From IMG/VR virus record IMGVR_UViG_3300042908_001001, positions 12,534 to 76,533 of that record: a DNA stretch of 64,000 nucleotides, one strand, 5' to 3'. Positions 3,616-53,400 of the stretch are shown here, in pieces; within the stretch, counting starts at the first letter, position 1; each line of letters begins with the position of its first letter. The DNA is from a virus. The notes under the pieces were generated by a model that was not told the origin of the DNA, made no database searches, and was given only the letters and a program-made list of their open reading frames with translations. Position numbers and translations under genes: made by a program.

Positions 3616-4485
3616 ATGCTATTTTTAATCATGCCCACGAACCCAAAAAGTAAAGTCGATCAAAAGATTCTAATGGATCAGTTTTTAGCTCTACGTTTAC
3701 TAATGGAAGAGTCGGGCATGATTAAATGGGTAAGCAAGAATGGCAAAAAGAATTTAGAGATTGAACCCAATTGTATCAGTCAACTAAAATCTCTTTACCC
3801 TGATAAAAAAAGAGAAATTCATTTAGGAGAAAAAGCAAAAGACATTTTAGTAATGTCTGTTAAGGGGATGGTAATCGAAGTCGCTAGATACTATCTAGCA
3901 AAGATGCGCTTAGATAATTCAAAGCTAGATGAATTGATTCAGATGGGCTACTTAGGGGCTACTTATTCCCTCTATAAGTTTAATCCAACAAAAAATATCA
4001 AATGGTCATCTTATGCTTATCTTTGGATAAAAGCCAAAATCTCTAGAGGTTCTTATCAGGATTATCTAATAAAAGCTAATTTGAAATATGAAGCCTTAAT
4101 ATTGACAGTCCCTCAAAGGATAAAACGTTTTGATTTACTGGCTTTTTCTACGGACTTACTTTGGATTTATCTTTCCCAAAAGACAATCTATCCTACTTAT
4201 CCTTTTAAGTTTTATTCGGAAAGTCCACAGGCAGATGACGGGTATACTTCTAGTATTTTTGACACTCTCCCATGTGAAAATAACAGAAATTTAGTTGATG
4301 AAATTCATTTAATTTTATCTCAGGACGAAATTGATATTCTAATGTCAGACGATCAAACCACAAAAAAGAAAAAAGACAATGTAGGTATTCTCGAAATGGC
4401 ATTAATGCAAGGGATACCGTTAGACAATTTTTACGACAAAAAACAACAAATCATCAACAAAGTAATGGAGCGTATTGAATTATGA
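3616..4485 (+). CDS. Phage-encoded sigma70-family factor
   Basis: Region-2 signature DELIQMGYLGATYSLYKFNPTKNIKWSSYAYLWIKAKI (cf. DLIQEG..GL..A..KFDP..G.KFSTYA.WWI); region 4 poorly recognisable. Confidence 0.8.
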   Translation: MLFLIMPTNPKSKVDQKILMDQFLALRLLMEESGMIKWVSKNGKKNLEIEPNCISQLKSLYPDKKREIHLGEKAKDILVMSVKGMVIEVARYYLAKMRLDNSKLDELIQMGYLGATYSLYKFNPTKNIKWSSYAYLWIKAKISRGSYQDYLIKANLKYEALILTVPQRIKRFDLLAFSTDLLWIYLSQKTIYPTYPFKFYSESPQADDGYTSSIFDTLPCENNRNLVDEIHLILSQDEIDILMSDDQTTKKKKDNVGILEMALMQGIPLDNFYDKKQQIINKVMERIEL

Positions 4486-5192
4486 TTGCATCTCAAGTAA
4501 TGATGCCTACTAATGAATATATTTTATCTGGTTTTAACAAAAAATATGGACAGTCAGCATTATTAATTGACGGGGGGTATGATTCCGATATTGGAATATA
4601 TCATTATCAAATCCATAAGATTAATAAGTACGATAAGGTTAACGGAAAGGTTTTTCTGGAAAACATAGGTTCATACGTTCCTGATGAACAAGGAAATCTC
4701 CCATTTAACATGAAGTATGGATTCTCTTTTTTTGAGGGATGTCAACACAAAGGTGTCCCATTTTATCCAATTTCAAGAAGCACTGTTGCAAGAATATCAA
4801 TAGAGTACAAACAAACTTCTTACACGGCCTATGGTGGCTGTAGTTCTTGCGAAAACATATTTGAAAGGTTTTGGGTAAAAAGCTTTGATAATCTACTAAA
4901 AAACTGTCCACAAGAATCATTGTCTGTAAAAGATTTGGTGATTTCAGAAATAAAGAAATTGTCCAATATAGCAGTTATGCGTGATTATTCTCGCAATTGG
5001 GTGTATTACAAATTTATGGACAAAGTACAAACAATAGACCAAAAAATAAATAATGAAATATTACAAAACACTCCATATTACTACTCATCTCAACTTGCTT
5101 ATAACCAATTTTCTTGGGGCTTAGTACAGTCATCAACAAAAGACAAAAAGAAAGATGATGAAAGATTGTTTGATTCTTTTTATCGGGTATGA
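4482..5192 (+). CDS. Hypothetical protein
   Basis: ATGA-coupled to the sigma gene; 236 aa; contains CxxC. Confidence 0.6.
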   Translation: MIASQVMMPTNEYILSGFNKKYGQSALLIDGGYDSDIGIYHYQIHKINKYDKVNGKVFLENIGSYVPDEQGNLPFNMKYGFSFFEGCQHKGVPFYPISRSTVARISIEYKQTSYTAYGGCSSCENIFERFWVKSFDNLLKNCPQESLSVKDLVISEIKKLSNIAVMRDYSRNWVYYKFMDKVQTIDQKINNEILQNTPYYYSSQLAYNQFSWGLVQSSTKDKKKDDERLFDSFYRV

Positions 5193-5545
5193 TCAACATG
5201 AAAAAGCAATTCTTTAAATGGCTAGAAAGTCGCATTATTAAATGCTCAGTCTTTATTCGTAACCTATGGACTGGTAAAAATACTTGTGTTATTGCAAGGC
5301 TAGTAGTCGATGATGACGGCGATCAATTTGTTCAATATATTAATCGCATTTCTGATACTGGCATTGGGTATGGATTCTCTTGCAAATTGATTGATGCTAA
5401 ATGGTATGAATCTCCCAAAAAAGCATTAGAGGATATCGTCAAGCTACCATCTTTGTATAGCTCACAAAACTGGGAGATTTTCTCTATTAGCGAATATGAT
5501 GAAAACTCGATTAAAGAAGCTTTATTAAAAGGGCAGGTTTGGTAA
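5189..5545 (+). CDS. Hypothetical protein
   Basis: Overlap-coupled ORF in the same operon. Confidence 0.55.
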   Translation: MINMKKQFFKWLESRIIKCSVFIRNLWTGKNTCVIARLVVDDDGDQFVQYINRISDTGIGYGFSCKLIDAKWYESPKKALEDIVKLPSLYSSQNWEIFSISEYDENSIKEALLKGQVW

Positions 5546-5703
5546 TGGAAATAAAGATTAAGCTAAACGTAATATTCTTGGCATTTTTTTGTATCTTGTC
5601 TATTTTTATTCCTTGGAAAACTATTCTTTTGTGGTGTGGTGCAATCTACTTATTGACAGCCATTAATGACTTGTTTGCATTATTACAAGAGGTGAAGAAA
5701 TGA
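5545..5703 (+). CDS. Small membrane protein (52 aa)
   Basis: TAATG coupling; hand translation MEIKIKLNVIFLAFFCILSIFIPW... is hydrophobic. Confidence 0.45.
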   Translation: MEIKIKLNVIFLAFFCILSIFIPWKTILLWCGAIYLLTAINDLFALLQEVKK

Positions 5704-7191: not shown

Positions 7192-7398
7192 ATGGACAAG
7201 GAAAGGCTTCTGGCAAAATCAGCTTATCTCAAAGCAGTTAATACGATGCTACTCATAGGCATTGAATCGCAATTTTTTCCGATAGCCGAAACAACCAGTT
7301 ATGAATTTGCGATCGCGCTTTTGGAGTGCATCAAGTTGTCAAAAAATTTAGCTGAGGATATTTTGGAAATAATTGAAACGGGAGTAGACGAATATTGA
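7192..7398 (+). CDS. Hypothetical protein divergent from the integrase
   Basis: 68-aa ORF immediately across attP. Confidence 0.5.
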   Translation: MDKERLLAKSAYLKAVNTMLLIGIESQFFPIAETTSYEFAIALLECIKLSKNLAEDILEIIETGVDEY

Positions 7399-7501
7399 CC
7401 AATAAAAAACCGCCCTAAACGGACGGCTCCATTTTAAGCTACAGTTTGACATAAAAACCGATCTGATTCCTCCATAAAATTATGATCGTATTCAGTAAAT
7501 A

Positions 7502-9181
7502 TTAACCATAAAAATCAATCACCCAAGATGGATCGTAACCTTCCACAAAACTAAGAACCAAAGCATCTAAATCGTCAGGAGAGGATAAACCACGCTTTTT
7601 CATATCGTCTTTACTTTCAATCAAAATTTTACCAGTAGTGGTGTATTTTGTGATTGGTTGGGACATTTGATTGATTAAGCTTCCATCATTAGGAATTGAC
7701 AATAATTCATCCAAGGGATGGTTTTTGATCCCATGAATCACCTCATAGGTTTTCTTGGCACGTTCTCTGATCAAATACAATCCCTCTGCTCTACAGTTCC
7801 TAAATTTCTCCTTACTGGTTTTCCCTTCCCCTTCCCACACCACGTCATCGGACGGTGTACCATTTCCATGAAAAGCCGTTACATTGTATGGTCTGTTTTC
7901 AATATTCTCGAAAGGATGAGCGCATCCCTCGCCCACTCCGTCCGAGTCAAAAGCAATTTTTTCTAATTCAAATTCTCTCATCAACTCATCAGACTTGAAA
8001 ACGGTAGGAGTAGGCTTTAATCCCCGCCAACGGATCAACGGTTGAACCACGCAACCAACCCGATGACAAAAGACGGTTTGATCGCCTTTTTTGCTTACCG
8101 ATACGTCTAACCCAGCCGCTTTGGTGCTAGACGCTTCAGCTAGTCCGTCAATGCGTAAATGGCTATTCACACACGCCATGACATATTCAGGGGGGATAAC
8201 AACGCCTTGGACAGAGCTTGTGAAGTCCATATCGTATTCCTGCGCCCAAATGAGATCCCCTACTTCCCTACGCTTGGCAATCTCAAAGGGGTAAACGGCT
8301 CCTAATGGAGAATCCCAACCCCAACCAGCATCCCATTCATCCTGATTATTTATAGCCCTTTCGTAACCATCTATCATTTCTTGATCCCATACAATCTTTT
8401 CTCTTTTGGGAGCAAACCATCTTCCCTTAATAGGGTGATCTTTCCAGTGATAACTGAATACAGGGTAATCCCCCGATGTCACCTGCTCATAAAATTTATG
8501 GGCAGTCCCATAAACCGTTGACACAAAAAAGACATTATCAGCAACCGCACTAAGGGCTGAAATTTTAGCGTCTGGACGCTCGCAGTGATTCCACTCATCA
8601 ATAATTACTTCCGTAGCCCGACCGCCGCGACCAAAACTATCGCCTCCAATTCCTGCTATTTCAGACCCATTGATGGGATTCTTAATAAATCCTGTTTTGT
8701 TATTTTCACGACTATCCCATCCCTCTGGTTGCATCCATTTAGGGAGTCGATTTAAAAGCATCCTATATTTCTCCATAATGCTCTTAGAACTACCTTTTTC
8801 GTCAACGGTAGAGATTACGTTAGCACCGACCCATCCCACATAATAATCAGTGAAAAGCCATGAATGAACCTGATTAATCGCTCCTAATACCCAAGTTGCC
8901 CCAATATCCCGTGATTTGGGAACACACGCCCATCTGACTTGTCCCTCCACGCGATCGCGTTTCATGGCATCTACCCAGTTCAATAGTTCCCGTTGCCTTG
9001 GGTATAGGATGAACGGGCTAAACGGGGGTGATTCTCTAGGATTAAAAGCAGTTACAAAATTATCACACCACCATAATTTGTCACGTTTACACATCTCTAG
9101 GCACAACTGCCTAAACTCTAAATCTTTCTCGCATTTATCTATGATTTGATTACGGATAATCAGGTTTTGTATAGTGTTCAT
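7502..9181 (-). CDS. terL: Terminase large subunit
   Basis: LYPRQ, Walker A-like KSRDIGATW, GRGGR, Walker B IIDE, VST coupling motif, nuclease GLDVS...GDQT...FDSDGVG...ESKDDMKKRGLSSPDDLDAL. Confidence 0.93.
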   Translation of the reverse strand: MNTIQNLIIRNQIIDKCEKDLEFRQLCLEMCKRDKLWWCDNFVTAFNPRESPPFSPFILYPRQRELLNWVDAMKRDRVEGQVRWACVPKSRDIGATWVLGAINQVHSWLFTDYYVGWVGANVISTVDEKGSSKSIMEKYRMLLNRLPKWMQPEGWDSRENNKTGFIKNPINGSEIAGIGGDSFGRGGRATEVIIDEWNHCERPDAKISALSAVADNVFFVSTVYGTAHKFYEQVTSGDYPVFSYHWKDHPIKGRWFAPKREKIVWDQEMIDGYERAINNQDEWDAGWGWDSPLGAVYPFEIAKRREVGDLIWAQEYDMDFTSSVQGVVIPPEYVMACVNSHLRIDGLAEASSTKAAGLDVSVSKKGDQTVFCHRVGCVVQPLIRWRGLKPTPTVFKSDELMREFELEKIAFDSDGVGEGCAHPFENIENRPYNVTAFHGNGTPSDDVVWEGEGKTSKEKFRNCRAEGLYLIRERAKKTYEVIHGIKNHPLDELLSIPNDGSLINQMSQPITKYTTTGKILIESKDDMKKRGLSSPDDLDALVLSFVEGYDPSWVIDFYG

Positions 9182-9718: not shown

Positions 9719-10597
9719 TTATTTTTTCTTGTATTTTTCGTCAATAATACAAGGGACTGCATTACTCCATATTGGGAAATGATGTAGTCTTTTGTGTGTT
9801 ACTCCCATCATACGAATACACACAAAAGACGGAGAACAAATAAGAGTATAAAAGCTCTTAACATACGTTCCAGACATCTTATATAAATCCGACATTCCCC
9901 CTTCCGACTCCTGAGTAGTTGCCTGATTAATAGATATTAGTGGGATTGTCAAAAATACATTACCCACAGAACCCAGTCTAGTATAGGTATTTACGTCTTC
10001 ATTTATCCTGCCAAAAAACTTAAATGGGCGTTTTGTTGAGCAAATAAAACTGTTCATACACTTTCTTTTTATAAATGGATATTTCCCGTTTTTATACCCA
10101 AAGTTATTCCCCCCACCGATAAAATCACCCCTCTGAGAAAATGCAATAGACAATACTCTATCATCAACATCAAAATAGTTAATTAAAGACAAAATAATTG
10201 AATCTATATTTTTTATTTCTCTCTGTTTAAAAACACCGTTCTCATCTTCTGTAAAAGAGAAATTACTATAGTCATCATCTAACTGCATAAAATAAGCTAT
10301 GCCTAGATTCTTTGCAATATCAAAACAGGCGTTTCTAGCATAAATAATCGCCCTTCTATCTCCAAAATTATCAAACTCGTCAAATGTTTTCGAGATAGCT
10401 AACTTGTCAAACATAATGACATTTTCTTTTCCAAAATTCTCATAATACTTATCGGCTGTTTTATCCTCATTATCTATCACAATATAAACACGCCCAGTGT
10501 ATCCACATCGTTGTAATGTGCGGCAAGTCTTTACATTATCAGGTCTTCCGTGAGTGAGGATAAAAATAGCAAAGTCTTCTAGTTTACTCATCACCAT
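9719..10597 (-). CDS. GT-A fold glycosyltransferase, GREB1-like/TET-associated (TAGT) type
   Basis: IFILTHGRPD, ARNACFDIA, MQLDDDY (DxD), F.GRINEDV, EGGM motifs. Confidence 0.75.
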   Translation of the reverse strand: MVMSKLEDFAIFILTHGRPDNVKTCRTLQRCGYTGRVYIVIDNEDKTADKYYENFGKENVIMFDKLAISKTFDEFDNFGDRRAIIYARNACFDIAKNLGIAYFMQLDDDYSNFSFTEDENGVFKQREIKNIDSIILSLINYFDVDDRVLSIAFSQRGDFIGGGNNFGYKNGKYPFIKRKCMNSFICSTKRPFKFFGRINEDVNTYTRLGSVGNVFLTIPLISINQATTQESEGGMSDLYKMSGTYVKSFYTLICSPSFVCIRMMGVTHKRLHHFPIWSNAVPCIIDEKYKKK

Positions 10598-11728: not shown

Positions 11729-11768
11729 AAATGAATAAGTAGAATTGTTTTAATAATAGCACAACATT

Positions 11769-12272: not shown

Positions 12273-12355
12273 AAAATAAAATGTTTTATAAATTTTGTTG
12301 ACATTTTAATAGTAACCCTGTAAAGTTAATAAAGATTCAATTTTAGAGGTATCTA

Positions 12356-15997: not shown

Positions 15998-16135
15998 AGC
16001 ATCGCCAGAATTGCGGGAATGCTTAAATCACGCAAAAAGATTTGTCTAGGCATTAATCTGAATTATTTTAAATCCTGTTATTATTAAGGTAACAGGATTT
16101 GTCTAAATAAAATGTTAACGGGCTAAGGTTTAACA

Positions 16136-19212: not shown

Positions 19213-19252
19213 TGTTATTATTTAGATATGTATATTAATTAATAACAATGAG

Positions 19253-29862: not shown

Positions 29863-29918
29863 AAAAAATAATTGGCTACTAAATAATAACCAATTAATAA
29901 AACAATTTTATTTTGTTT

Positions 29919-33148: not shown

Positions 33149-33272
33149 AATATTTACCTATAGTTTTAAGTAAATATTAACCTGTTTATTGTGCTATCAT
33201 TAATTTATTCACGCTATCAATACTAAGATTTTTAACCGCCACTTAGATGCAACTATGGCGGTCTTTTATTGT

Positions 33273-37871: not shown

Positions 37872-37927
37872 TCATTTTCCCTCAATTTCTACTCAATATT
37901 AACCATTGCACGGGGTTTTGATGGTAC

Positions 37928-41794: not shown

Positions 41795-41795
41795 T

Positions 41796-42436: not shown

Positions 42437-42715
42437 ATGTTTCAATGCTGTGGCGTTTTGATGGCTAAGAATGGCCTTACCAAGGGCGGTAATCAAAAGT
42501 ATCGCTGTAAAGTTTGCAAGAAAACTAAAGTAGATAGTCCTCCCAGACTTAGTCGTGAAGAGTATCAGAGACGATGGAGGGAAGAAAACCCTGATAAGGT
42601 AAGTCAGTGGCAAAAAGACTATTTTAAACGTCATCCCGAAAAGTACGAAGAAAAGAAAAAGAAAGAAACTGAAAGACAAAGACTGGCTAGACAAGCTAAA
42701 AAACAAGCCAGTTAA
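42437..42715 (+). CDS. InsA-like zinc-ribbon protein
   Basis: CC....KNG...GG.QKYRCKVC; own promoter TTGACA(42388)-17-TAAGAT. Confidence 0.6.
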   Translation: MFQCCGVLMAKNGLTKGGNQKYRCKVCKKTKVDSPPRLSREEYQRRWREENPDKVSQWQKDYFKRHPEKYEEKKKKETERQRLARQAKKQAS

Positions 42716-42743
42716 TATTTTTTAGGGCATTTAAGGGCATTGC

Positions 42744-43145: not shown

Positions 43146-43465
43146 ATACTTGACAAGGATAAATTATGTTGTTAAGATGGTTAGTATAAACCAAGTAAAG
43201 GAATTAATCAGATGACCACTTCAAACGAAATTAAAAAAGCAGTCAAGGCAATCACAGGATTGAAAGTTAGAATCAAAGATAATAAAAAATTTTATACCAT
43301 TAGCAACAGCGAAAGTCATCTTCCTAATGGGTTTGGTCACTTTGCGGAAGAATTAAAATCTATGTTTGCAGTAACCCGTCTTGATGGTTGTTCTTTTGAC
43401 ATTTTGAAGTAAAAACAAAATCAATCAACTTTAACCCTTGCCCTAAAAAGTAAGGGTTAATATTT
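43144..43465 (+). mobile_element. Type-B expression cassette 1 (promoter-RBS-ORF-terminator)
   Basis: Header AAATACTTGACAAG..TAAGATGGTTAGTATAAACCAAGTAAAG; footer TAAAAAC.AAATCAATC..TTAACCCTTGCCCTAAAAAGTAAGGGTTAA. Confidence 0.75.
43212..43412 (+). CDS. Cassette-borne hypothetical protein
   Basis: Fills cassette B1 exactly. Confidence 0.65.
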   Translation: MTTSNEIKKAVKAITGLKVRIKDNKKFYTISNSESHLPNGFGHFAEELKSMFAVTRLDGCSFDILK

Positions 43466-43759: not shown

Positions 43760-44156
43760 GTCCGACCTTGAAAAAGTATTAGAAGTTACCCGTCATCCCA
43801 CCACCAAGAAAGTGCTTACCTTTGGATTGGTTGGTAAATACACTTATCAGGCTAACGGATTTATTGATACCGCGATCGCGATCGGTTCAGCCAAAAGCGG
43901 TGTCACAGTCGAGGGATTAGAGATTGTAATTGATTTTCCTAAAACCGAATCATCTTGTAGTACCGACAAATACGTGCAATTAACAGAGAAATTTACCGTT
44001 AGGATGATTCAACGTAGTGGCGAGAATTTATACCCTGCTAGGGAGATTATTAAAAGGCTAGGGTTAAGGGATTATACCGACTCATCTATTATTGGGGATG
44101 TGATTGGTAATTATCCCCAGTATGTTTTCAGTTTTAGATACTCGGAAGGATTTTAA
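43734..44156 (+). CDS. Probable tail terminator protein
   Basis: Position directly before the tail tube gene; ATG re-called to 43734. Confidence 0.55.
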   Translation: MAITPLQLKSDLEKVLEVTRHPTTKKVLTFGLVGKYTYQANGFIDTAIAIGSAKSGVTVEGLEIVIDFPKTESSCSTDKYVQLTEKFTVRMIQRSGENLYPAREIIKRLGLRDYTDSSIIGDVIGNYPQYVFSFRYSEGF

Positions 44157-44211
44157 AAGTTGTGGTTATTATTTAATAGCCTATTTTTAAAACTCTAGAG
44201 GTAAAATTTTT

Positions 44212-44997: not shown

Positions 44998-45067
44998 GTT
45001 TTACTCTTTACCCTCTCTTAACCCTTACTCTGTAGGGGTTTCTTTATATCTATATTTTATTTTCCCT

Positions 45068-45510
45068 AAATACTTGACAAGTATAAAATAAGGGTATAAG
45101 ATGGTTAGTATAAACCAAGCAAAGAGAGATTAAAGATTATGGATTTTCAAAAAGAAATCACAATCAAAGGATGCACCATTAAATTAATCCCATCATCCGA
45201 GGTTCCAGTATATGATCGTTGTCAAGGGAAAAGGATTATGGGGGCTGGCTTTTTCCCTATCCCTGAAACAAATTTAAAAGCATTATGTGTTTACACTCGG
45301 AGTTACGGAAAAAAGAGCTATTCTTTCGACTTTGGAGATACATGGAGTACGGTTAAAGAACACGCTTTTAGTTATTTCTTGGATTCATTAAAAGCTCAAA
45401 TCGAAAATGAATTATACAGCACAACAGAAGGGACTTTATACGTCAAAGAAGCCTAAAAACAAATCAATCAATCCTTAACCCTTGCCCTAAAAAGTGAGGG
45501 TTATCATTTT
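45068..45510 (+). mobile_element. Type-B expression cassette 2
   Basis: TTGACA(45074)-17-TAAGAT; same header and footer as B1 and B3. Confidence 0.75.
45139..45456 (+). CDS. Cassette-borne hypothetical protein
   Basis: Fills cassette B2 exactly. Confidence 0.65.
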   Translation: MDFQKEITIKGCTIKLIPSSEVPVYDRCQGKRIMGAGFFPIPETNLKALCVYTRSYGKKSYSFDFGDTWSTVKEHAFSYFLDSLKAQIENELYSTTEGTLYVKEA

Positions 45511-45512
45511 TT

Positions 45513-45746
45513 ATGCTTAAACTACAATCACCTAACGGAAAAGTAATTTTATGGGGTGCTACTGTAAGCGATCGCACTGTATCGGCTGAGATAGCGTTTA
45601 TCGGGTCGTCAATTCAAAACCCGATGATTCCACTATCAAAACCTAACAGCAAGACTAGGGAGTGTTTTGTTAGACTGCCAGACAACTTTTTGATGCAAGC
45701 TTTGCCCATGAAAGGGAATAATATTACGCTTGAAATTATTGATTGA
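45513..45746 (+). CDS. Hypothetical protein, possibly tail-associated
   Basis: Lies between cassettes B2 and B3. Confidence 0.5.
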   Translation: MLKLQSPNGKVILWGATVSDRTVSAEIAFIGSSIQNPMIPLSKPNSKTRECFVRLPDNFLMQALPMKGNNITLEIID

Positions 45747-45749
45747 TTA

Positions 45750-46170
45750 GAATGCTTGACAAGTACAGAATAAGGGGATAAGATGGTTAGTATAAACCAA
45801 GTAAAGAGAGATTAAAGATTATGAACGCTAGAAAATACGACGACATTCAAACAAATACAGTTACTCGCTACGAAATCGCTTTGATGGAAGGCGAAAAAAT
45901 AATCAAAGTTTTAGGTTACACAGCAAAGAAAACAAAGCAAGCTTTATTCAATACAGTAAGTAATGGGGATGACTTAACAAAATACTTTCAAGAATCAGAA
46001 TTAGATTGCGAATATTTTTATGATAAAAAATGGGGGATCGTATTTTGCCCACGATTAAGAGTCGCATTTTCTGGTAGAACAGAGAGACAAGTGGCAACAG
46101 AAAAAGTATTTGCATAAAAACTAAATCAATCCACTCTTAACCCTCGCCCTAAAAAGTGAGGGTTATTTTG
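45750..46170 (+). mobile_element. Type-B expression cassette 3
   Basis: TTGACA(45756)-17-TAAGAT; header near-identical to B2; footer TTAACCCTCGCCCTAAAAAGTGAGGGTTA. Confidence 0.75.
45821..46117 (+). CDS. Cassette-borne hypothetical protein
   Basis: Fills cassette B3 exactly. Confidence 0.65.
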   Translation: MNARKYDDIQTNTVTRYEIALMEGEKIIKVLGYTAKKTKQALFNTVSNGDDLTKYFQESELDCEYFYDKKWGIVFCPRLRVAFSGRTERQVATEKVFA

Positions 46171-46220
46171 TTTTAATAATTATGGTTATTATTTATTGTC
46201 GTTAAATATTTAAAACAATT

Positions 46221-46943
46221 ATGGTACTTGCAGTAAATAGTAATCAGAGAGCGCGATTTGTAAAAAGTTTAGGGATTGACGAAAATAGTCTCCCTTTTGT
46301 ATTATTCCCTAAACAATCTTTAATTCAGTCGGTTAGTAACTTAGTGACTGAATCGGTCGCTGGTTTTGATATTCCCATTATTAATGATTTTACGCCTTCC
46401 GAGAAACTCCTTTTTACCGCGATTGATTTAAAAGCCCGTCCTCTCTATATTGAATATCAGGAAGTCAATGAGGATCTGGCAGAAGCATTGTCTTTGGTCG
46501 TTACCGCCGATGGTTCGCCATTAGTTCCCGATGGAATTGAACCGATTAAATTCATCACTCCTGATTCTGAATTTGTGCAATCAGAGATTTATACACAAAT
46601 CACAAAATCACAGTCTTACAAGCGATTTAAACGTGACAACCGTGAGCTATTTGACGATCAGGATCAGGTCTATACGAAACTGATTATCCTTGACCTCACA
46701 ATGGGACGTGCCAAAGTTGCTTTATTCCTTTCTACTCGGATTGATACAACTTGGTTTGATCGTGCAAACGAGTTAAGTGTTGAGCAAATTAAGGAGATTG
46801 TGCAATTTATCCAGAAGGAAGGTAACGGGGGTAAAACGGAAGATGAACCAACAGAAGAAGACGAAACTAAAGGAGAGGTAGTTACCGAAAAAAACGACTC
46901 CAACAAGAAATCGAAAGATGGTCAGATCACTACTGGGAACTAG
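46221..46943 (+). CDS. Tail assembly chaperone (gpG-like)
   Basis: Acidic protein between tail tube and TMP; slippery A AAA AAC at 46889-46895. Confidence 0.7.
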   Translation: MVLAVNSNQRARFVKSLGIDENSLPFVLFPKQSLIQSVSNLVTESVAGFDIPIINDFTPSEKLLFTAIDLKARPLYIEYQEVNEDLAEALSLVVTADGSPLVPDGIEPIKFITPDSEFVQSEIYTQITKSQSYKRFKRDNRELFDDQDQVYTKLIILDLTMGRAKVALFLSTRIDTTWFDRANELSVEQIKEIVQFIQKEGNGGKTEDEPTEEDETKGEVVTEKNDSNKKSKDGQITTGN

Positions 46944-47302
46944 CGATCGCGCTTCCTAACGATGATAGATTTGATTATAGAAATTTTGCCAATCAATCAC
47001 CTAGATTAATTAGGCAAGCACTCAATCAAATCTATCAAAAAAGGAACCTTGACCAGTATTCTACGGCTTTAGGGATTTCAACTTATGCAAACGCTAATAG
47101 AGGAGAAAATAGTCAGCCTATTGAGTTTTATCAATTCTTACCTCATCCATTAGTTTGGAGACAAAATAATACTCAGAAGAAAATAAATATTAGTAAGAAT
47201 ACAGCGATTCAATTCTTAGCTGATTACTCTAGCTTTACCTCTGAAATGTTATCCGTCTTTGATGAATGGATGGATGAGATAAGAATGACAGCAAGCGGTT
47301 AA
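46895..47302 (+). CDS. -1 frameshift extension of the tail chaperone (gpT-like)
   Basis: 135 open codons in the -1 frame (RLQQEIERWSDHYWELAIAL...FLPHP...MTASG*) with no early ATG. Confidence 0.75.
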   Translation, partial: RLQQEIERWSDHYWELAIALPNDDRFDYRNFANQSPRLIRQALNQIYQKRNLDQYSTALGISTYANANRGENSQPIEFYQFLPHPLVWRQNNTQKKINISKNTAIQFLADYSSFTSEMLSVFDEWMDEIRMTASG

Positions 47303-47334
47303 CCCTATTATTTATTTGGTAGGGTTTTCTATTG

Positions 47335-47541
47335 TTAAGACGTAATACTTACTACGCAAGCAGAATGATAGGGTTTTGCATATATGTAATGGTTCCCGCC
47401 TGTATCTGTTTTCTCTCTTAAAAGAAATACAATTTTATCAAACTCTTTCATCCTATCTTTGTCAACCGAATCAATCGTGTAAAGCTTGTTTCGGATAAAA
47501 ATTTTATATCCTTCTTTTACTTGCGACCAAGGTACAATCAT
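47335..47541 (-). CDS. Hypothetical protein
   Basis: Last gene of the helicase operon. Confidence 0.5.
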   Translation of the reverse strand: MIVPWSQVKEGYKIFIRNKLYTIDSVDKDRMKEFDKIVFLLREKTDTGGNHYIYAKPYHSACVVSITS

Positions 47542-47543
47542 AA

Positions 47544-47945
47544 TTAAATCCTCTCAATTTGGTTAGGGTACACGCTTCCTTCCGTCCCGTCTTCATATTT
47601 TATATTAATATGGGGGCGAAACGAATCCATCGTAAAATAATCCTCTTTATGAATCTTTTTTAAGCTATCATCCCACTCATGACGGGAACCTCTGTAAATA
47701 CTGACAATGCCTATTTTGCCCGTTATTTTATGCCTTACCCTATCACCATTTGAGACTAGGCTAATATCCCATAAAGGATTTTCAGGATTATGGCATATTT
47801 TATTCTTTTGGCTTTTAATTCGGTTGAACTCATTTAATTTATCTTCGGGAAGTTGAGATAAAAAATGAGATAACATACCTTGGGGAATAACATCTAATTG
47901 ATTGATGTCATTGGTTGCGATCGCACGTTCCAGTAGTTCAATCAT
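47544..47945 (-). CDS. Hypothetical protein (SH3-like GDRVRH..G..G.V)
   Basis: ATGA-coupled. Confidence 0.55.
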   Translation of the reverse strand: MIELLERAIATNDINQLDVIPQGMLSHFLSQLPEDKLNEFNRIKSQKNKICHNPENPLWDISLVSNGDRVRHKITGKIGIVSIYRGSRHEWDDSLKKIHKEDYFTMDSFRPHINIKYEDGTEGSVYPNQIERI

Positions 47946-48271
47946 TTAACTGCTCTCCTTAAAATACTTAGTCCAAAATCTGTCTTGGAAAACTCTTTTC
48001 CAATCTCTTTGGACTGTTGATTAGTTAATTTTGTTTGATGGTCAACTGTGCCAAAGAATATATCACTTCCTTTTTTCTTTCTTTGAACCATTGCGACTAA
48101 TTCAAAATCCCCAAGAATTCCACTACTGACTACTACTCCAACTAGATAAAAGTTAGGGTCTGTAATGTCTTTTTTTGCCTTATTAGCTATCTCAAAAGCC
48201 TTACTATCTTCTAATGCTTTTGTGATGTGCCATTTCTTAACAGGCTGTGTTCCGAAACCTTTAGTGGTCAT
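47942..48271 (-). CDS. Hypothetical protein
   Basis: ATGA-coupled to the helicase; starts MTTKGFG. Confidence 0.55.
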   Translation of the reverse strand: MTTKGFGTQPVKKWHITKALEDSKAFEIANKAKKDITDPNFYLVGVVVSSGILGDFELVAMVQRKKKGSDIFFGTVDHQTKLTNQQSKEIGKEFSKTDFGLSILRRAVK

Positions 48272-50184
48272 TTCTTTTTAACTCCTAGTAATGGTCTTGA
48301 TAATCCGAACTCGTAGGCAATATTTAATAAATCACCATCTACATTGCCTTGTAGTAGTTTTTTCTGGTAACTATCTTTGATTAACTTTTCCTGAGCATAT
48401 TTGTGAGTCCCTACAATTTCCCACCATTTAAAAGTTTGTAGATTGTCAATCACAACTCCCTTATACTGCCTTCCGTTGGGCATATAATAGGTTTTGTCAG
48501 GATAACCAAACTCAAGATAAAGAAAGTCCTGAATAAGGTCTTTATGAACTCCCATTAACTTAAGTTTATCAGAATAAATTTGATGGTTAATGTCTGAATT
48601 TTGGAAGTTAAAAACGGCTCCTATGAACCAGTCAGGATGTGGTAAATATCCCCAACGTTCGTAAAAGTGTTCATAGATTTTATCGAGTGGTTTGTGATTA
48701 TCGGTAAAGCGTTTATAGAGTTGATAACGTAGCCATTTATAGGCTTTTTTCTTCTCAGGGGAAAGGAACTCAGAGACAATAAATCTTACTTCATAGTCTT
48801 TTGGTTCAACCTCTTTTTTAGGGAATTCATAATGGCAATGAGGGCATACCCTAGCAAATATAGGGATTGATTTTCCGCATCCTCCATCTTTTTCAGGGCA
48901 TTCCTTTTCTAATGCCATATTCTCCTTTTCAGGAGGGCATAAAGAAACATGAGATAAGTCTAAAGGATCATCAATATCAAACTTTTTGCAGATATGTTTA
49001 AAGCATTCCCCAAAATCATAAATCGTTTTAAATGGGATACCGTCAAACTTCCTTAGAACCCGTCCTGCCATTTGGATAATGAGTTGAGGTGAACGACTCG
49101 GACGACCGATCAATTCAACCTCTAGACTGGGATCGTCATGCCCTTCTGTGAACTTTCCAACCCCTACTAAAACATCAAAATCATGATTAGAATGCTCTAA
49201 GAAAATCCTATCAGCATCTTTATCATTTTCCCCTACTAAATATTTAGCAGATACTCCATTATCTAGAAATTGCTGACACAAATCCTTTGCTTGATTGACA
49301 TTAGAAGTGAACGCGATCGCTTTCTTCCCTTTTTCGGCATTGATATAGGTTTCAACTATTTTGGCATTGTACTCAGTGTTACAAGCCTTGATGAGTGACC
49401 CCATAGTATAGTCACCTGAATCATCCGTTTCTAGATTGTCTGTGACCTCCGTTTTAATGTCTAAAATTCTGTCTTGTGCTAAATACCCTTGATTGATTAA
49501 TTCCCTTGGACTAGGGCATTTAACAACAAACTGGACGTATTTACAATACCCTTCTCTACCTTTATCGGGTTTTCCGTCAGGCAAGTATAATTTGTTGCCT
49601 TGATTGTCGGTAAAATGGACAATTGATTCACTTCTCCAAGGTGTAGCAGTTAGCCACAAAAAGAAGCATTTTGAGAGTGCCATAATGCCGCCCGAATAAA
49701 AGTTTTCAATTATTCGAGAGAATCGGAAAAAACCGCATATATGCGCTTCGTCGGTAATGACTAAGCCGATATTTGGAGGCATAGCAGACTCACCTAGCCG
49801 CCTGTGACGGGCTTCTAATGTTTGAATCATACAAAGTTGAACACTTTTGCTATGATCGTTAATTGCTACGTTTTTTAATGCTTCTATGGGCATTTTTAAG
49901 TTAGTTGCAAGCCGTTCGATAGTCATCCCTGAAGCGATGATAGAAATATCATCAACTCCAATATTTAATAATGCTTTGACGGTTTGAGCTATTAGCTTTT
50001 TGCGATGGCAACAGAACAAAACCCTACGATTTTTTTTAGTTGCATCTTGAATAATTTTTGACGCAATAGCTGTCTTGCCTGATCCCGTAGGCCCATAAAT
50101 TAATCCCTGATGAAAACCTTTCTTAAAAAAACTGTAGGCATCCGAGATGACCTGTAATTGATAATCACGATAGGCTATCGACAT
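48268..50184 (-). CDS. SF2 DEAH-box helicase (RadD-like, zinc finger)
   Basis: YRDYQ, GPTGSGKT, TDEAH, LTATP, FTEGHD.P, QMAGRVLR, CP...CG...CPHC. Confidence 0.92.
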   Translation of the reverse strand: MSIAYRDYQLQVISDAYSFFKKGFHQGLIYGPTGSGKTAIASKIIQDATKKNRRVLFCCHRKKLIAQTVKALLNIGVDDISIIASGMTIERLATNLKMPIEALKNVAINDHSKSVQLCMIQTLEARHRRLGESAMPPNIGLVITDEAHICGFFRFSRIIENFYSGGIMALSKCFFLWLTATPWRSESIVHFTDNQGNKLYLPDGKPDKGREGYCKYVQFVVKCPSPRELINQGYLAQDRILDIKTEVTDNLETDDSGDYTMGSLIKACNTEYNAKIVETYINAEKGKKAIAFTSNVNQAKDLCQQFLDNGVSAKYLVGENDKDADRIFLEHSNHDFDVLVGVGKFTEGHDDPSLEVELIGRPSRSPQLIIQMAGRVLRKFDGIPFKTIYDFGECFKHICKKFDIDDPLDLSHVSLCPPEKENMALEKECPEKDGGCGKSIPIFARVCPHCHYEFPKKEVEPKDYEVRFIVSEFLSPEKKKAYKWLRYQLYKRFTDNHKPLDKIYEHFYERWGYLPHPDWFIGAVFNFQNSDINHQIYSDKLKLMGVHKDLIQDFLYLEFGYPDKTYYMPNGRQYKGVVIDNLQTFKWWEIVGTHKYAQEKLIKDSYQKKLLQGNVDGDLLNIAYEFGLSRPLLGVKKK

Positions 50185-50438
50185 TTCCCCTCATCCGTTC
50201 AATCTTGCTGACAAGTTTATCCATATCGGACTGCATGGATGCAAGATAGAAATTGTCGTATTGCAAAGTTCCAAAACGAAACTTTATGGTCGTAAAAGTG
50301 AAAACTTGCACTATTTAGTCCTCCGTACTGGCTTGCTCTTATTATAAACACGGTCTTTTTAAAATGTCAACAAAGTTTTTAAAACATTTTTAGGTTTTGA
50401 GCGTGGTTATTATTCTGTAAGGCTTTTGAGGTTTTGTT

Positions 50439-53400
50439 ATGGCGATCGCACTAGAAGAGTTAATCCTACAATTTTCAATCGACTCGGACGGACTAGAGAA
50501 AGGTCTGGACTCAGTTTCGGCTAGGGCAAGAGCCAAGGCTAAGGAGATCGAGGGAATGGCGATCGCTCCTAAAGTCGATTTGAAGGGTTTGCACGACCTT
50601 AACAAGCTTTTGGATATAAAACAGAGGCATATAAAGGAAACGGCTGATTTTGCCAAGCGCACCCCCATTGTGATGGGTGTGGATGTTAGTCAGGTTAAGG
50701 AGGCGAGAAAGGAATTACAGGGATTAAAAGCTGATTTAGGGATGAGTGGAGGTAATCAGACGATCAGGGTTAAGGTTGAGCATGATTATAAAGTCGATAT
50801 TCGAGAGTCCAATCGGGATATTGTTAGCGCGATTAATGGGCTAAGAAACGAGTTCAAAGAAGTAGCAAAATCATCTAAAAAAACAGATACTCCAAAGCAA
50901 CAAAAAGACCCTAGTAGTGATTTAGCTAAAGAGATTAAGCAGGGCTTTAATCAAATGAAGTCTGGCAATATTTTTGAGGGAATTGGCAAAATCGCCTTAA
51001 GTCCTGCCAAAGCAATCTTTACGGGATTCTATGAAGGGATAGGTTTAACCGCGTCTTCAAAGCTTACCAAGGGTGCTATTAAAAGTATTGAAAGTGAATG
51101 GAATTTTACCCTAGATGCACTAGGTAAAGGGACTGGAAAAGCTTTTGGTAGTATCGGTAAGAACGCGGCTGATTTGTTGTTGCATTCGATGGGGACATCT
51201 ACAGAACAAATTAATGGGATGTTTGAGGATTTATCCCAAGGCTTTAATGATATTTTTGATGAAAAAGAAGCTAGAACGCGAATCCAAAATATAGGGGATA
51301 CTATTAACAAAACCCTAACAAATGCTTTTAAGAATGGCACGTTTATTAGTGACGATATTGCAGAATTAAAGTCTGCTATCAACGCCTATAAGGGATTAAG
51401 GCGGGAAAATATTGACAAAAGAAGAAAGCAGTCTGTAGATGAAACGGCTAGACAGGCAACAGAACAGTCGGGAATGTATGACGCTCCTGATTTATCTGGT
51501 AAAGAAAAAGCGGTATTATATGCTGGTGGGTTTGCAGGTAAAAACAGTAAAACTCATGAACAAAATGCGGTAATGCTTGGCAAGATTTATGGAGAAACTG
51601 CCCAAGTATTTCAGTCTGGTAATGATGCAACTAATACCGATACAAGTTCAAAAGATAATCCAGTCAAATGGATGGTTGAAGCGGCTCGGAAAATTACTAA
51701 ATTGAATCTGAGTGGTGAAGTTAATCCAGACGTTGTAAAAATGGTGGCTCAGGCATTAGCTATTAGGGAAAAGAATCCTCATATTACGATTGATTTAGTC
51801 GGACATAGTGCGGGTGGCTTTATTGCTAAAGACGCGGCGGCTATACTTGAAAGATTAGGTGTTGAGAACGTCAGGGGTGTGGGTATTGGAACTCCTGACG
51901 GGGTAATGGGAAGCATTGGACAGGGTAACTATCAAGGGATACTAGGAAAAGACGATACGGTTAAAAAGATAGTAGATAACGCGGCTGTTTTAGGGTTAAC
52001 AAATCCATCAAATGAAGCCAGTCAAAATATGAGTGGGATTGCTTCTCACTCTATGATTGATTATCTATCAAATCTTGACGTTCAAAGCTTATTAACGGGA
52101 CAAAGTGGAATTACTAAAGATGAATTATTAAAAGGATTGGGTGACGATGTAACGGGTGCGGTTGCGACTGATATCAAGAAAAATATTCATGGGGTATTAA
52201 AAGAAGTCGGAGAAGGAACCGTATTGATCGCGTCGGCTGTCATCAAAGAATCGGTTAAACAGATTCAAAATCTAGTTCCCGTTGCCAAAGAAGTGGGTGA
52301 GGGTGCGTTATCTGTTGGACAGGGGATGGGAATTGGAACTAAAAAAGTAGGGGTAATCGCATTAAGCGAAAGAAGAAAAGGCATTGCTAGTAATGAATCA
52401 GTTAGACGTGCAATGGCAATGTCTGAAAATGAAGAAGCAATTCCAAGTGATAAGCCTATTGTTTTTGCGGCGGGTGGTGTTATTGGGATGCACGGTATCG
52501 GGGGAAAATTTGTTAAAAAAGATATTGAAAAAACAATTGGAAAAGATGCCGCGACCATCGTTGATTTTGCTACACCTAATACTGATTTTATTGCAAAAGA
52601 AAAAGGCGATAGAGTAAATAGTAAAAAATTTAACGAGGCTTTAAATTCGCCAATTGGAAAATGGATTGCTTCTACTACAAATGAATTAAAAACAAGATAC
52701 AGAAAAGAAGTAGAAAGCATTTTAGGAAAGGCAATAACGGCCGAGCTTTATAGTTACACCGCAAAAGATATTTTTCGGTTAAAACTACCCACTAGTGTTT
52801 ACTTAACGGGAAGCAATGAAGATTCTGTTAAGTTAGCCGCTAAAGTAATTGCAATTAAAAAAGAAAATGAAGACGCTTTAATTACTTTAATCGGACACTG
52901 TGGTGGTGGCACGATGGTAGAAGAGGCATTAGCTATTGTCGAATCTGCTGGTTATGGTAAAAACGTTACCGCAATGGGTATCGGTTCCCCTGACTTGGGG
53001 GTAAGTGCGGGGGCTGAAAAATATAAGCGATTTGTTGGGAATGAAGACGAAGCGGCGATCCGTCTTGGGAGAATTTTTAAACAAGAGCAATCAAACATAC
53101 AAAGTCAAGGCATGATTGCTTATTTAGCTACTCATGAATCCTTAGAATACTTAAGACATCCTGAAATTATCAAAGCTCTACCAGACCCACTCAAAAAAGC
53201 ATCTGTTGGGAAAAACGTAAGTTTCCAAAAAGACTTGATGTCTAAATATATTGAAAATATTCAAAAAGACCCTGATAAATTTCACTCTAGCAAGCAATCA
53301 TTTAATATGATTGAAGAAGATTTGAAGTATGCTAGACAGTTTTTAGATGAGTTCAAGAATGAAATAGATGATGATTTTAGAAGCGCAATAAATCAAATTC

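What the first reader, a model, noticed from the sequence alone, without database searches (positions are those of the whole stretch)
3616..50439. Phage sigma factor plus a GTTAWTATT late-promoter motif may explain a scrambled virion-gene layout
Seen: virion genes are dispersed on both strands. GTTAWTATT lies 18-50 bp (mostly 24-30) before the start codon at 16077(+, fibre), 19214(+, portal), 29882(-, adaptor/hub unit), 33173(-, scaffold/capsid), 37895(-), 42711(+, neck), 43455(+), 44164(+, tail tube), 46184(+, chaperone) and 50405(+, TMP). It also occurs at 23448(-) and 24096(-), with a GCTATTATT variant at 11752(-). No shared -35 is evident. The phage sigma keeps region 2 but has a poorly recognisable region 4. 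Established: T4 gp55 recognises a -10-only late promoter. Inference: a compact -10-only promoter read by this sigma frees structural genes from operon order, which is unusual for a temperate siphovirus. Exceptions: no clean copy was found directly before terL, and copies at 1742, 1801 and 7498 lack an obvious late gene.
Basis: partly seen in the sequence, partly recalled or inferred. Interest (0 to 1): 0.8.

Follow-up and report, generated by a model that had tools for sequence, protein, structure and literature searches.

The report
Cyanophage late promoter box and sigma
A nine-letter DNA word, GTTAWTATT, sits just ahead of nearly every block of virus-particle genes in this lake-water cyanobacterial virus and is very probably a one-box late promoter, most likely read by the virus's own sigma factor; the strategy is known from phages T4 and phiEco32, but this sigma/box pair and its sister pair in related viruses are not described.

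Summary
Observation confirmed. The window is most of a 76.5-kb uncultivated lake-water siphovirus with a cyanobacterial HIP1 signature. GTTAWTATT occurs 22 times. Fifteen copies lie in the 7-8% of the genome that is intergenic (0.7 expected). All 15 point at a gene, 13 of them 16-50 nt before its start codon. No -35 is conserved upstream.

A second, canonical class (TTGACA-17/18-TAnnnT) heads the sigma operon, replication and nucleotide genes and small moron cassettes. The 9-mer heads head, portal, tail, tape-measure and lysin units.

Related phages share about 25 genes but carry a different -35-less box, TTAAKATAR, before the orthologous late genes. Each box is absent from the other lineage; the canonical class is unchanged. 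Gene order between relatives is almost wholly scrambled (2 of 22 adjacencies kept).

The sigma has a sound domain 2, no domain 3, and a diverged domain 4 whose DNA-reading helix lacks the usual basic residues.

Best reading (about 0.6): host RNA polymerase makes the phage sigma early, and that sigma then reads the box. No transcript data exist, so the sigma-box link is inferred. The scan has noted similar one-box late promoters with a phage sigma in at least 29 other cyanophage genomes. This is a new variant of a known strategy.

The parts
3616..4485 (+). Phage sigma factor (289-aa ORF; the database version starts 19 aa later). It has domain 2, an unrelated linker in place of domain 3, and a diverged domain 4.
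   Evidence: Pfam Sigma70_r2 scores 28.2 bits against a cut-off of 24. The best PDB matches are SigA region 2, cyanobacterial (Syn7942 RNAP-SigA by the title) among them. By hhalign the C-terminal 72 aa match region 4 at 94.6% probability. The AF2 model has mean pLDDT 82, high for residues 10-148 and 226-289.
1978..2006 (+). Class-1 promoter (TTGACT-17-TATGAT) heading the sigma operon (ORFs 2043-5703).
   Evidence: No GTTAWTATT copy lies on the + strand between 1978 and 5703.
1927..1955 (-). Class-1 promoter (TTGACA-17-TATCTT) facing the 1159-aa replication-type gene.
   Evidence: It is conserved in relative G001.
1742..1750 (-). GTTATTATT copy in the leader of the 1159-aa gene, 148 nt before its start.
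   Evidence: It is conserved in G001 amid diverged flanks.
1801..1809 (-). GTTATTATT copy directly before a terminator-like hairpin. It is not conserved in G001 and is possibly non-functional.
7498..7506 (-). GTTAATATT overlapping the 3' end of terL. About 85 nt downstream lie a conserved terminator hairpin and a one-mismatch copy, GTCAATATT.
   Evidence: G001 has a reshaped GTTATTATT here and an exact GTTAATATT after the terminator.
11752..11760 (-). Variant GCTATTATT, 23 nt before the 95-aa / ParB-like / glucosyltransferase-like unit.
12298..12326 (+). Class-1 promoter (TTGACA-17-TAAAGT) heading the sliding-clamp, dCTP-deaminase and thymidylate-synthase-like unit.
16077..16085 (+). Late box, 50 nt before the 601-aa tail-fibre-like gene and the 332-aa structural gene.
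19214..19222 (+). Late box, 30 nt before the portal gene.
23448..23456 (-). Late box, 17 nt before a 2OG-Fe dioxygenase gene, which is not a virion gene.
24096..24104 (-). Late box, 29 nt before a 199-aa gene of unknown function.
29882..29890 (-). Late box, 19 nt before the unit of 72-aa, 122-aa virion-structural and 257-aa tail-assembly genes.
33173..33181 (-). Late box, 24 nt before the head unit (DUF2213 scaffold/protease-like, structural protein, major head protein).
37895..37903 (-). Late box, 23 nt before a 121-aa gene conserved in all relatives.
42711..42719 (+). Late box, 24 nt before a 133-aa gene that lies next to the portal gene in relative G006.
43456..43464 (+). Late box, 25 nt before the 89-aa and 152-aa genes. 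Its first bases form the 3' arm of the preceding moron terminator (43431-43460).
44165..44173 (+). Late box, 38 nt before the 261-aa tail-tube gene.
   Evidence: The tail-tube assignment comes from the protein atlas: Phage_tail_2-type clusters at score 0.95 and TM 0.52-0.61.
46185..46193 (+). Late box, 27 nt before a 240-aa gene, about 20 nt after the moron terminator at 46138-46165.
50406..50414 (+). Late box, 24 nt before the 3488-aa tape-measure gene.
50341..50370 (-). Class-1 promoter (TTGACA-18-TATAAT) heading the helicase unit, divergent from the tape-measure late box.
43150..43178 (+). Class-1 promoter of a moron cassette. It is one of five near-identical heads (39885, 40640, 43150, 45074, 45756), each followed by a small ORF; terminators follow the three cassettes at 43150, 45074 and 45756.
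45500..45508 (+). Variant GTTATCATT, directly after the terminator at 45476-45503 and before a 77-aa gene.

Best explanation
GTTAWTATT is the core of a one-box (-10-type, -35-less) late promoter. Read as G(-14) T(-13) TAWTAT(-12 to -7) T(-6), it would place the transcript start about 6-7 nt downstream. That gives leaders of roughly 10-45 nt. The proposed cascade has two steps. First, host RNA polymerase with its primary sigma uses the canonical TTGACA-17/18-TAnnnT promoters. These drive the replication and nucleotide-metabolism genes, the moron cassettes and the operon that encodes the phage sigma. Second, the phage sigma binds host core polymerase through a conserved domain 2 and a diverged domain 4. 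The DNA-reading helix of domain 4 has lost the usual -35-contacting residues. All specificity would therefore come from the 9-mer, which the sigma uses to start about 15-18 short late units (head, portal, neck, tail tube, tape measure, fibres, lysin and a few others). Because each unit carries its own compact promoter, units can be moved, inverted and interleaved with other genes. This would explain the scrambled and non-syntenic layout in this phage family. What is shown: the box, its placement, the two promoter classes and their split by function, the lineage-specific box switch, and the sigma's domain make-up. What is inferred: the transcript starts, the late timing, and that this sigma rather than a host sigma reads the box.
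For: (1) Enrichment and geometry. Fifteen intergenic copies occur against 0.7 expected, all co-oriented with a gene, 13 of them 16-50 nt before a start codon.
(2) Two classes. The box has no conserved -35. A separate class carries a near-perfect TTGACA at a 17-18 nt spacing.
(3) Split by function. Boxes head the fibre, portal, head, adaptor/tail-assembly, tail-tube, tape-measure and lysin units, plus the 943-aa tail gene through a variant box. The canonical class heads the sigma operon, the 1159-aa primase/helicase-like gene, the clamp/dCTP-deaminase/ThyA-like unit, the helicase unit, a methylase unit and the morons. No canonical promoter heads a recognised virion gene.
(4) Restart after terminators. 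The terminators at 43431-43460, 45476-45503 and 46138-46165 are each followed at once by the box or a one-mismatch variant.
(5) Conservation in relative G001. The box is kept before the lysin and 1159-aa genes. It is re-created with different letters and a small shift at the terL end. Homology before the 943-aa tail gene begins exactly at the box.
(6) Switch between lineages. Relatives G003, G004, G005 and G006 share about 25 genes at 25-70% amino-acid identity. Before the orthologous late genes they carry TTAAKATAR, 21-37 nt before the start codon. Intergenic counts of GTTAWTATT and TTAAKATAR are 15 and 1 in this genome, 0 and 10 in G003, 1 and 10 in G006, and 0 and 5 in G004 (expected 0.4-1.7). 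The canonical class is the same in all.
(7) Sigma make-up. Domain 2 is intact, with the core-binding and melting motifs (ELIQMGYLGA, KWSSYAYLWI). At the region-2.4 positions that align with sigma-70 T440/R441, this lineage has S-R and the TTAAKATAR lineage has Q-E. The C-terminal 72 aa match region 4 (hhalign 94.6%, E 6.5e-8). The positions of the -35-contacting residues R584/E585/R586/R588/Q589 are L/D/N/Y/D. The AF2 model and Foldseek hits to SigA chains agree with this layout.
Against: There are no transcript data. No RNA run holds this phage, and it is known only from lake metagenomes. TAWTAT with G at -14 lies within what a primary or group-2 sigma can read. From general knowledge, many cyanobacterial promoters also lack a -35. 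The covariation of box and sigma rests on a single switch between two lineages, and their hosts are unknown and may differ. Some copies do not fit a simple late-virion regulon. One precedes a 2OG-Fe dioxygenase. Two lie in the leader of a gene that already has a canonical promoter. One sits at the 3' end of terL. TerL itself has no copy within its upstream 80 nt. In relative G006 the sister box also precedes a dCTP-deaminase gene. A retained domain 4 might still contact some upstream DNA that my alignment of 13 sites could not reveal.
Confidence: 0.6

Rival explanations
1. The box is a promoter, but host RNA polymerase reads it with a host sigma (primary or group 2) as an extended-(-10)-like, -35-independent promoter. 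Late timing, if any, would come from another phage factor. Candidates are an inhibitor of -35-dependent initiation, as in Thermus phage P23-45 or T4 AsiA (from memory), an activator, or coupling to replication. The phage sigma would then have another job.
For: The hexamer TAWTAT keeps A(-11) and T(-7), and a G sits at -14. The genome also has an ordinary extended -10 promoter, TGTGCTATAAT, before the RNR gene, and a hybrid, TTGACA-18-TATTAT. The sigma's region 2 is closest to cyanobacterial SigA/SigD, so its -10 preference could be close to the host's.
Against: Nine positions are nearly invariant over 15 sites, whereas the -10 hexamers of the canonical class in the same genome vary freely. T at -15, which defines the extended -10, is present in only 2 of 13 sites. 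Related phages use a different invariant box before the same genes, yet share the canonical class. This is hard to explain with the highly conserved -10 reading of primary sigmas, unless the hosts differ in an unusual way.
Confidence: 0.27
2. The box is the binding site of a phage DNA-binding regulator (activator or repressor) that sits beside an unrecognised weak promoter. It would not itself be the element read by a sigma.
For: The site is short, invariant and oriented, at a fixed place before genes, which would suit an operator.
Against: The box is not palindromic or repeated, as most operators are. It has the A(-11)/T(-7) pattern of a -10 element. No other -10/-35 candidates are conserved around it. 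The leaders are too short to hold a separate promoter downstream (16-30 nt to the start codon).
Confidence: 0.08
3. The box acts at the RNA level, as a processing, stability or translation signal within longer transcripts.
For: It always lies in the sense strand, close to start codons.
Against: Its distance to the start codon varies from 16 to 50 nt. It lies directly after intrinsic terminators, where read-through RNA should be scarce. It also appears where no upstream same-strand transcription is expected, in divergent intergenic regions at 19214, 24096, 37895 and 50406.
Confidence: 0.03

Closest known systems
phiEco32 gp36 sigma and its middle/late promoters (PMC12276001, read)
   Same: Early genes are read by the host primary sigma. 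Middle and late genes are read by a phage sigma built of a sigma-2-like N-terminal domain and a sigma-4-like C-terminal domain. The promoters are defined by one short element centred near -11.5 (AATGTA).
   Different: No sequence relationship to gp36 was seen or specifically tested. Here region 2 is closest to cyanobacterial group 1/2 sigmas. The box is a TATAAT-like hexamer with fixed flanks. The gp36 C-terminal domain still makes base contacts near -37, whereas no upstream element is conserved here and the matching helix is acidic or hydrophobic. No gp79-like partner was identified. The host is cyanobacterial and the virion is a siphovirus.
T4 late transcription: gp55, gp33 and the gp45 clamp, with an 8-bp TATA-box late promoter (PMC2988020, read)
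   Same: Late promoters are a single 8-9 bp box about one helical turn before the start, with no -35. About 40 such promoters (from memory) let late genes lie in several clusters on both strands among other genes. Gp33 is a sigma-4 mimic that binds the beta flap without reading DNA, which is what the diverged domain 4 here may do. A sliding-clamp gene is present here too (12560-13690).
   Different: Gp55 has only a sigma-2-like part and gp33 is a separate protein. Here both parts are in one chain, like the artificial gp55-gp33 fusions that paper discusses. No gp55 or gp33 family match was found. Clamp dependence is unknown. The box sequence differs (GTTAWTATT against TATAAATA, the latter from memory).
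Extended -10 (TGnTATAAT) promoters of primary sigmas, and the -35-less promoters common in cyanobacteria (general knowledge)
   Same: They work without a -35. There is a G at -14 and a TAnnnT hexamer.
   Different: T at -15 is not conserved. T(-13), T(-9), A(-8) and T(-6) are invariant here, unlike host-type promoters in the same genome. Sister phages have a different invariant version.
Sigma genes of marine cyanosiphoviruses S-CBS1, S-CBS3 and KBS-S-2A
   Same: They are the only isolated-phage matches to this sigma (22-30% identity, E 2e-7 to 4e-4). They are also siphoviruses of cyanobacteria.
   Different: The relationship is very distant and mostly confined to region 2. Their records annotate them as group-2-type sigmas. 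I know of no described target promoters for them and did not examine these phages.
Earlier notes of this scan on other cyanophages (one-box late promoters with SigF-, SigJ- or gp36-like phage sigmas)
   Same: The overall design is the same: a short oriented box 20-45 nt before virion genes, together with a phage sigma.
   Different: The boxes differ (for example GGGTAAAA, GTTGAAAGC, CGCYCAA and J-box-like words), and so do the sigma types. Here the sigma is group-1/2-like in region 2 and the box is TATAAT-like. Those notes are unchecked by me.

Membership tests
Sigma-70 family sigma factor | Domain 2 (regions 2.1-2.4) with the core-binding helix and the aromatic melting residues | tested here: met
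   Pfam PF04542 scores 28.2 bits against a cut-off of 24. A profile search of the PDB hits cyanobacterial SigA at E 6e-10 over residues 63-147. The motifs ELIQMGYLGA and KWSSYAYLWI align to DLIQEGxxGL and KFSTYATWWI. AF2 pLDDT is above 90 for residues 10-148.
Sigma-70 family sigma factor | Domain 4 (regions 4.1-4.2, helix-turn-helix) | tested here: met
   Pfam and NCBIfam models do not detect it. The C-terminal 72 aa of the family profile alone align to region 4 of a canonical sigma profile at 94.6% probability, E 6.5e-8. AF2 pLDDT is 78-96 for residues 226-289. The positions of the -35-contacting residues are not conserved (L/D/N/Y/D).
Sigma-70 family sigma factor | Domain 3 | tested here: not met
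   Residues 150-217 have no similarity to the canonical profile (hhalign probability 0.4%) and a low pLDDT of 46-64. Shorter relatives lack most of this segment.
Sigma-70 family sigma factor | Binds core RNA polymerase and directs initiation | not testable with these tools
   This needs biochemistry.
T4 gp55-type late sigma | A sigma-2-only protein, with the flap-binding function supplied by a separate gp33 | tested here: not met
   A sigma-4-like domain is present in the same chain. No gp55 or gp33 family appears among the Pfam or PHROGs matches.
T4 gp55-type late sigma | Single-box late promoter at -10 with no -35 | tested here: met
T4 gp55-type late sigma | Activation by the sliding clamp | not testable with these tools
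   A clamp gene exists (phrog_947), but any dependence on it cannot be inferred.
phiEco32 gp36-type phage sigma | Two-domain sigma (sigma-2-like plus sigma-4-like) reading one dominant element near -11 | tested here: met
   compared with PMC12276001.
phiEco32 gp36-type phage sigma | Sequence homology to gp36 and a gp79-like partner | not tested
   No gp36 sequence was at hand by reference. The only PHROGs match was phrog_351, 'RNA polymerase sigma factor'.
ECF (group 4) sigma | Match to the ECF model above its cut-off | tested here: not met
   TIGR02937 scores 25 bits against a cut-off of 42.9. The best region-2 matches are cyanobacterial SigD and RpoD models.
Extended -10 promoter (TGnTATAAT) | TG at -15/-14 | tested here: not met
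   G(-14) is invariant, but the base before it is T in only 2 of 13 start-proximal sites and G in 8 of 13.
Extended -10 promoter (TGnTATAAT) | A TAnnnT hexamer and no need for a -35 | tested here: met
   TAWTAT is present in all copies, and no conserved column lies upstream of the box.
Late (temporal class) regulon | Transcripts appear late in infection | not testable with these tools
   No RNA holder is listed for this phage. 'Late' rests on gene function only.

The most novel reading that the evidence does not exclude
This uncultivated family of cyanobacterial siphoviruses carries co-evolving, mutually exclusive pairs of sigma and promoter box: GTTAWTATT with one sigma lineage and TTAAKATAR with another. 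The pairs would act as private late-transcription codes. Because every late unit is a self-contained cassette of box plus gene, the family has lost the conserved virion-gene order of siphoviruses almost entirely (2 of 22 adjacencies kept). The two pairs would be natural orthogonal sigma/promoter parts for cyanobacteria.
Probability: 0.45. Interest if true: 0.7.

Novelty: new variant of a known kind. Interest (0 to 1): 0.55.

Why it matters
If the phage sigma reads this box, three things follow. First, it assigns a concrete function and target to an unstudied sigma type: group-1/2-like domain 2, no domain 3, and a domain 4 that has lost its DNA-reading residues. Second, two sister boxes before the same genes give a natural experiment on how sigma region 2 and the -10 flanks co-evolve. 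Third, it offers a mechanistic reason why a whole siphovirus family could abandon the otherwise very stable order of head and tail genes. In practice, the two short boxes and their sigmas would be candidate orthogonal expression parts for cyanobacteria. The boxes also allow late genes, many of unknown function, to be picked out in related metagenomic phages.

Tried and rejected
- The contigs of the closest sigma and portal relatives (P0004, P0005, P0006, and P0008 on a 56.7-kb contig) could therefore not be fetched.
- **Empty scans.** The phage collection holds no close relative by DNA, capsid or TerL.
- **Sequencing runs.** No RNA holder is listed. Contigs of four lake metagenomes were laid on 31000-50999 at 80% likeness, but only a few of 349 differences were shown. 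The result could not be used as a footprint.
- **First AF2 model.** The model from a 6-sequence alignment was poor (pLDDT 43). It was replaced by the 114-sequence model.
- **Region 4 by library models.** Pfam and NCBIfam do not find region 4. It was settled by profile-profile comparison instead.
- **Other viral contigs with weak sigma matches.** L010-L015 have no portal relative and were dropped. L005 is a true relative but too short for motif discovery. It has GTTATTATC 31 nt before its tail-tube gene.
- **The 1159-aa protein.** It has no Pfam, PHROGs, NCBIfam or PDB sequence match. Only the atlas gives primase and helicase leads.
- **TerL.** No box or small-terminase ORF was found upstream of terL.
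- **N4-like reading.** I considered and dropped the idea that the 3488-aa ORF is an N4-like virion RNA polymerase. It matches tape-measure families.

Full report
**What the window is.** The window is bases 12534-76533 of a single 76,533-bp contig. The sequence is held by many lake-water metagenomes and by no RNA run, so this is an uncultivated phage genome. It carries 47 copies of the cyanobacterial HIP1 octamer GCGATCGC against 0.3 expected, which points to a cyanobacterial host.
- It is a siphovirus-type genome. It has a portal (PF06381), a TerL (32% identical to Vibrio phage NF TerL) and a DUF2213 scaffold/protease-like protein with a major head protein.
- It also has a tail-tube protein (atlas lead), a 3488-aa tape measure, tail and fibre proteins and a glycoside hydrolase.
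- A large serine recombinase is present, so a temperate lifestyle is possible.
- These virion genes lie in at least six blocks on both strands. They are interleaved with replication, nucleotide-metabolism, methylase and HNH genes.

**The observation.** GTTAWTATT occurs 20 times in the window against 3.4 expected, and 22 times in the genome.
- Fifteen copies lie in intergenic DNA, which is 7-8% of the genome. An AT-matched Markov model expects 0.7 there and never gave more than 5 in 5,000 trials. Coding DNA is not enriched.
- All 15 intergenic copies point at a downstream gene, and 13 lie 16-50 nt before its start codon.
- In the eight intergenic regions whose flanking genes run the same way, the box always has the genes' orientation.
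- Aligning the sites shows no conserved column upstream of the box. There is only a weak preference for tg before it and ta after it.
It omits the copies inside genes and two sites outside the window: one 16 nt before the hydrolase gene, and the variant GTTAATATC 24 nt before the 943-aa tail gene.

**A second promoter class.** K-mer counts in upstream regions also bring out CTTGACA. A scan finds about 16 intergenic TTGACA-17/18-TAnnnT promoters.
- They head the operon that contains the sigma gene (TTGACT-17-TATGAT at 1978-2006).
- They head the 1159-aa gene, which has primase and helicase leads only from the atlas.
- They head the unit of clamp, dCTP deaminase and thymidylate-synthase-like genes, the helicase unit and a methylase unit.
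- They head five near-identical small cassettes; terminators were found after three of them.
- Their -10 hexamers vary freely (TATGAT, TATCTT, TAAAGT, TAAGAT, TATAAT and others), whereas the nine letters of the box are almost invariant.
- No canonical promoter heads a recognised virion gene. No exact box directly heads a recognised replication gene.
- In the tail region each cassette terminator is followed at once by the box or a one-mismatch variant (43456, 45500, 46185). This is what a restart promoter would look like.

**Close relative G001.** G001 is a 22-kb viral contig whose sigma is 63% identical, and it is a mosaic of ~73-93% identical DNA blocks.
- The box is kept before the hydrolase gene and in the leader of the 1159-aa gene, although the 1801 copy is lost.
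- At the 3' end of terL it is present with different letters and a shift of a few bases.
- Before the 943-aa tail gene, homology between the two phages begins exactly at the box, so box and gene travel together.

**Distant relatives.** A profile of the sigma family found further viral contigs. G003 (66.8 kb, complete), G004, G005 and G006 (72.7 kb) share about 25 genes with this phage at 25-70% amino-acid identity. These include the sigma, TerL, portal, tape measure, tail, lysin and replication genes. All are rich in HIP1.
- They do not carry GTTAWTATT. De novo counting instead brings out TTAAKATAR. It also lacks a -35 and lies 21-37 nt before the start codon.
- It precedes the orthologues of the tape-measure, 943-aa tail, fibre, lysin, 122-aa virion, 240-aa and scaffold genes.
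- The intergenic counts are reciprocal:

| Genome | GTTAWTATT | TTAAKATAR |
|---|---|---|
| This genome | 15 | 1 |
| G003 | 0 | 10 |
| G006 | 1 | 10 |
| G004 | 0 | 5 |

  Expected counts range from 0.4 to 1.7.
- Canonical TTGACA promoters occur in all of these genomes.
- Read as -10 elements, the two boxes are GT-TAWTAT-T and T-TAAKAT-AG.
- Gene order is almost entirely different. Only 2 of 22 (G003) and 4 of 25 (G006) ortholog adjacencies are kept.

**The sigma.** Library models see only region 2, and its closest models are cyanobacterial SigD and RpoD. PDB matches are SigA region 2, with the core-binding and melting motifs kept.
- A search of 1.8 billion representatives found a family of proteins of 225-250 aa with the same layout. 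One comes from a Xenococcus MAG; the rest come from metagenomes.
- Profile-profile comparison aligns the whole protein to a canonical sigma. The C-terminal 72 aa alone align to region 4 (94.6%, E 6.5e-8). Residues 150-217 match nothing.
- With a 114-sequence alignment, AF2 gives mean pLDDT 82. Residues 10-148 and 226-289 are confident and the linker is not. Foldseek returns SigA chains from initiation complexes.
- In the region-4 alignment, the positions of the sigma-70 -35 contacts (R584, E585, R586, R588, Q589; numbering from memory) are L, D, N, Y and D. The helix is acidic throughout the family.
- In region 2.4, this lineage has S-R at the positions of T440/R441, while the TTAAKATAR lineage has Q-E.
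- These differences are consistent with different reading of the upstream edge of the -10 element. They do not prove it.

**Interpretation.** That the box is a promoter core I hold at about 0.85. That the phage sigma reads it I hold at about 0.6.
- The sigma link is supported by the host-type promoter of the sigma operon and by the absence of a -35 together with a domain 4 stripped of its DNA contacts. It is also supported by the box switching between phage lineages while the canonical class stays the same.
- The main rival is that a host sigma reads the box as an extended -10-like promoter. TAWTAT with G(-14) is compatible with that, and the single lineage switch could reflect different hosts.
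- Some copies do not fit a pure virion regulon: a 2OG-Fe dioxygenase, two copies in a leader, and one at the terL 3' end followed by a terminator and a second, imperfect copy. TerL has none.

**Comparison with known systems.**
- The closest functional parallel is phiEco32. It has host-sigma early promoters and a two-domain phage sigma, gp36, that reads one element centred at -11.5 (PMC12276001).
- T4 late transcription is the classic single-box case. It uses gp55 (sigma-2-like) plus gp33, a sigma-4 mimic that binds the flap without reading DNA (PMC2988020). The protein here looks like a natural one-chain version of that pair, but it is not a member of either family by any test I could run.
- The scan has already noted similar one-box late promoters with phage sigmas in at least 29 other cyanophage genomes, with other boxes and sigma types (unchecked by me).
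- I therefore rate this as a new variant of a known kind. Its added value lies in the sister box in relatives and in the extreme loss of synteny.

Noticed in passing
window 39885-39913, 40640-40668, 43150-43178, 45074-45102, 45756-45784 (+): Five near-identical heads of about 60-70 nt. Each has a TTGACA-17-TAAGAT/TAGACT promoter, a small GGTTAGTATAAACC hairpin and a purine-rich ribosome site. Each is followed by an unrelated small ORF; three of them (43150, 45074, 45756) end in near-identical terminators (CCCT-GCCCTAAAAAGT-AGGG). These are plug-in moron cassettes among the tail genes.
   Followed up: partly
window 7380-7510 (-) and L002:13580-13700 (-): Downstream of terL the order is box, about 85 nt, a conserved terminator hairpin (GCCGTCCGTTTAGGGCGG plus a T run), then a second box or near-box. 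The arrangement is kept in relative G001 although the letters differ. It could be a short late RNA of about 95 nt or a terminator/restart junction. A similar box-hairpin-box arrangement lies at 1742-1809 (-).
   Followed up: partly
window 21553-22077 (+): A canonical promoter (TTGACA, then TATGAT) is followed by about 500 nt without a credible ORF. Earlier notes of the scan call this a structured RNA with tRNA-like ends.
   Followed up: no
window 50439-60905 (+): The tape-measure ORF is 3488 aa (3761 and 3736 aa in relatives G003 and G006). It carries an internal lysin-like segment (residues 2314-2501, phrog_2588 and an endolysin family) and a weak lipase/thioesterase-like nucleophile-elbow match near residues 438-486.
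   Followed up: no
window 9719-10597 (-), 13694-14266 (+), 14792-15616 (+), 33528-35460 (-); L001:1457-2470 (+): Genes suggest modified DNA: a protein like the T4 beta-glucosyl-HMC alpha-glucosyltransferase, a dCTP deaminase, a thymidylate-synthase-family enzyme that could be a pyrimidine hydroxymethylase, and several DNA methyltransferases.
   Followed up: no
window 63893-64000 and L001:403-510: The last 108 bases of the contig are repeated about 400 bases from its start, as seen through the double match of G001 931-1037. This may be a direct repeat or an assembly overlap at the genome ends.
   Followed up: no
G003 24360-24430 (-), G006 32260-32330 (-) and 17470-17550 (-) (loci L017, L021, L020): In the relatives, some TTAAGATAG boxes are followed by a conserved segment (GTGCCCCCAG...CCTGGAGGAC) and lie 64-72 nt from the next ORF. 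This may be a small structured RNA or a leader.
   Followed up: no
whole genome and relatives G003, G004, G006: HIP1 (GCGATCGC) occurs 47, 33, 28 and 49 times against 0.3-0.45 expected. This is a strong cyanobacterial signature in all four phages.
   Followed up: yes
window 22513-23430 (-): A 2OG-Fe dioxygenase (PF10014) has an exact late box 17 nt before its start. An auxiliary enzyme appears to be wired into the late class.
   Followed up: partly
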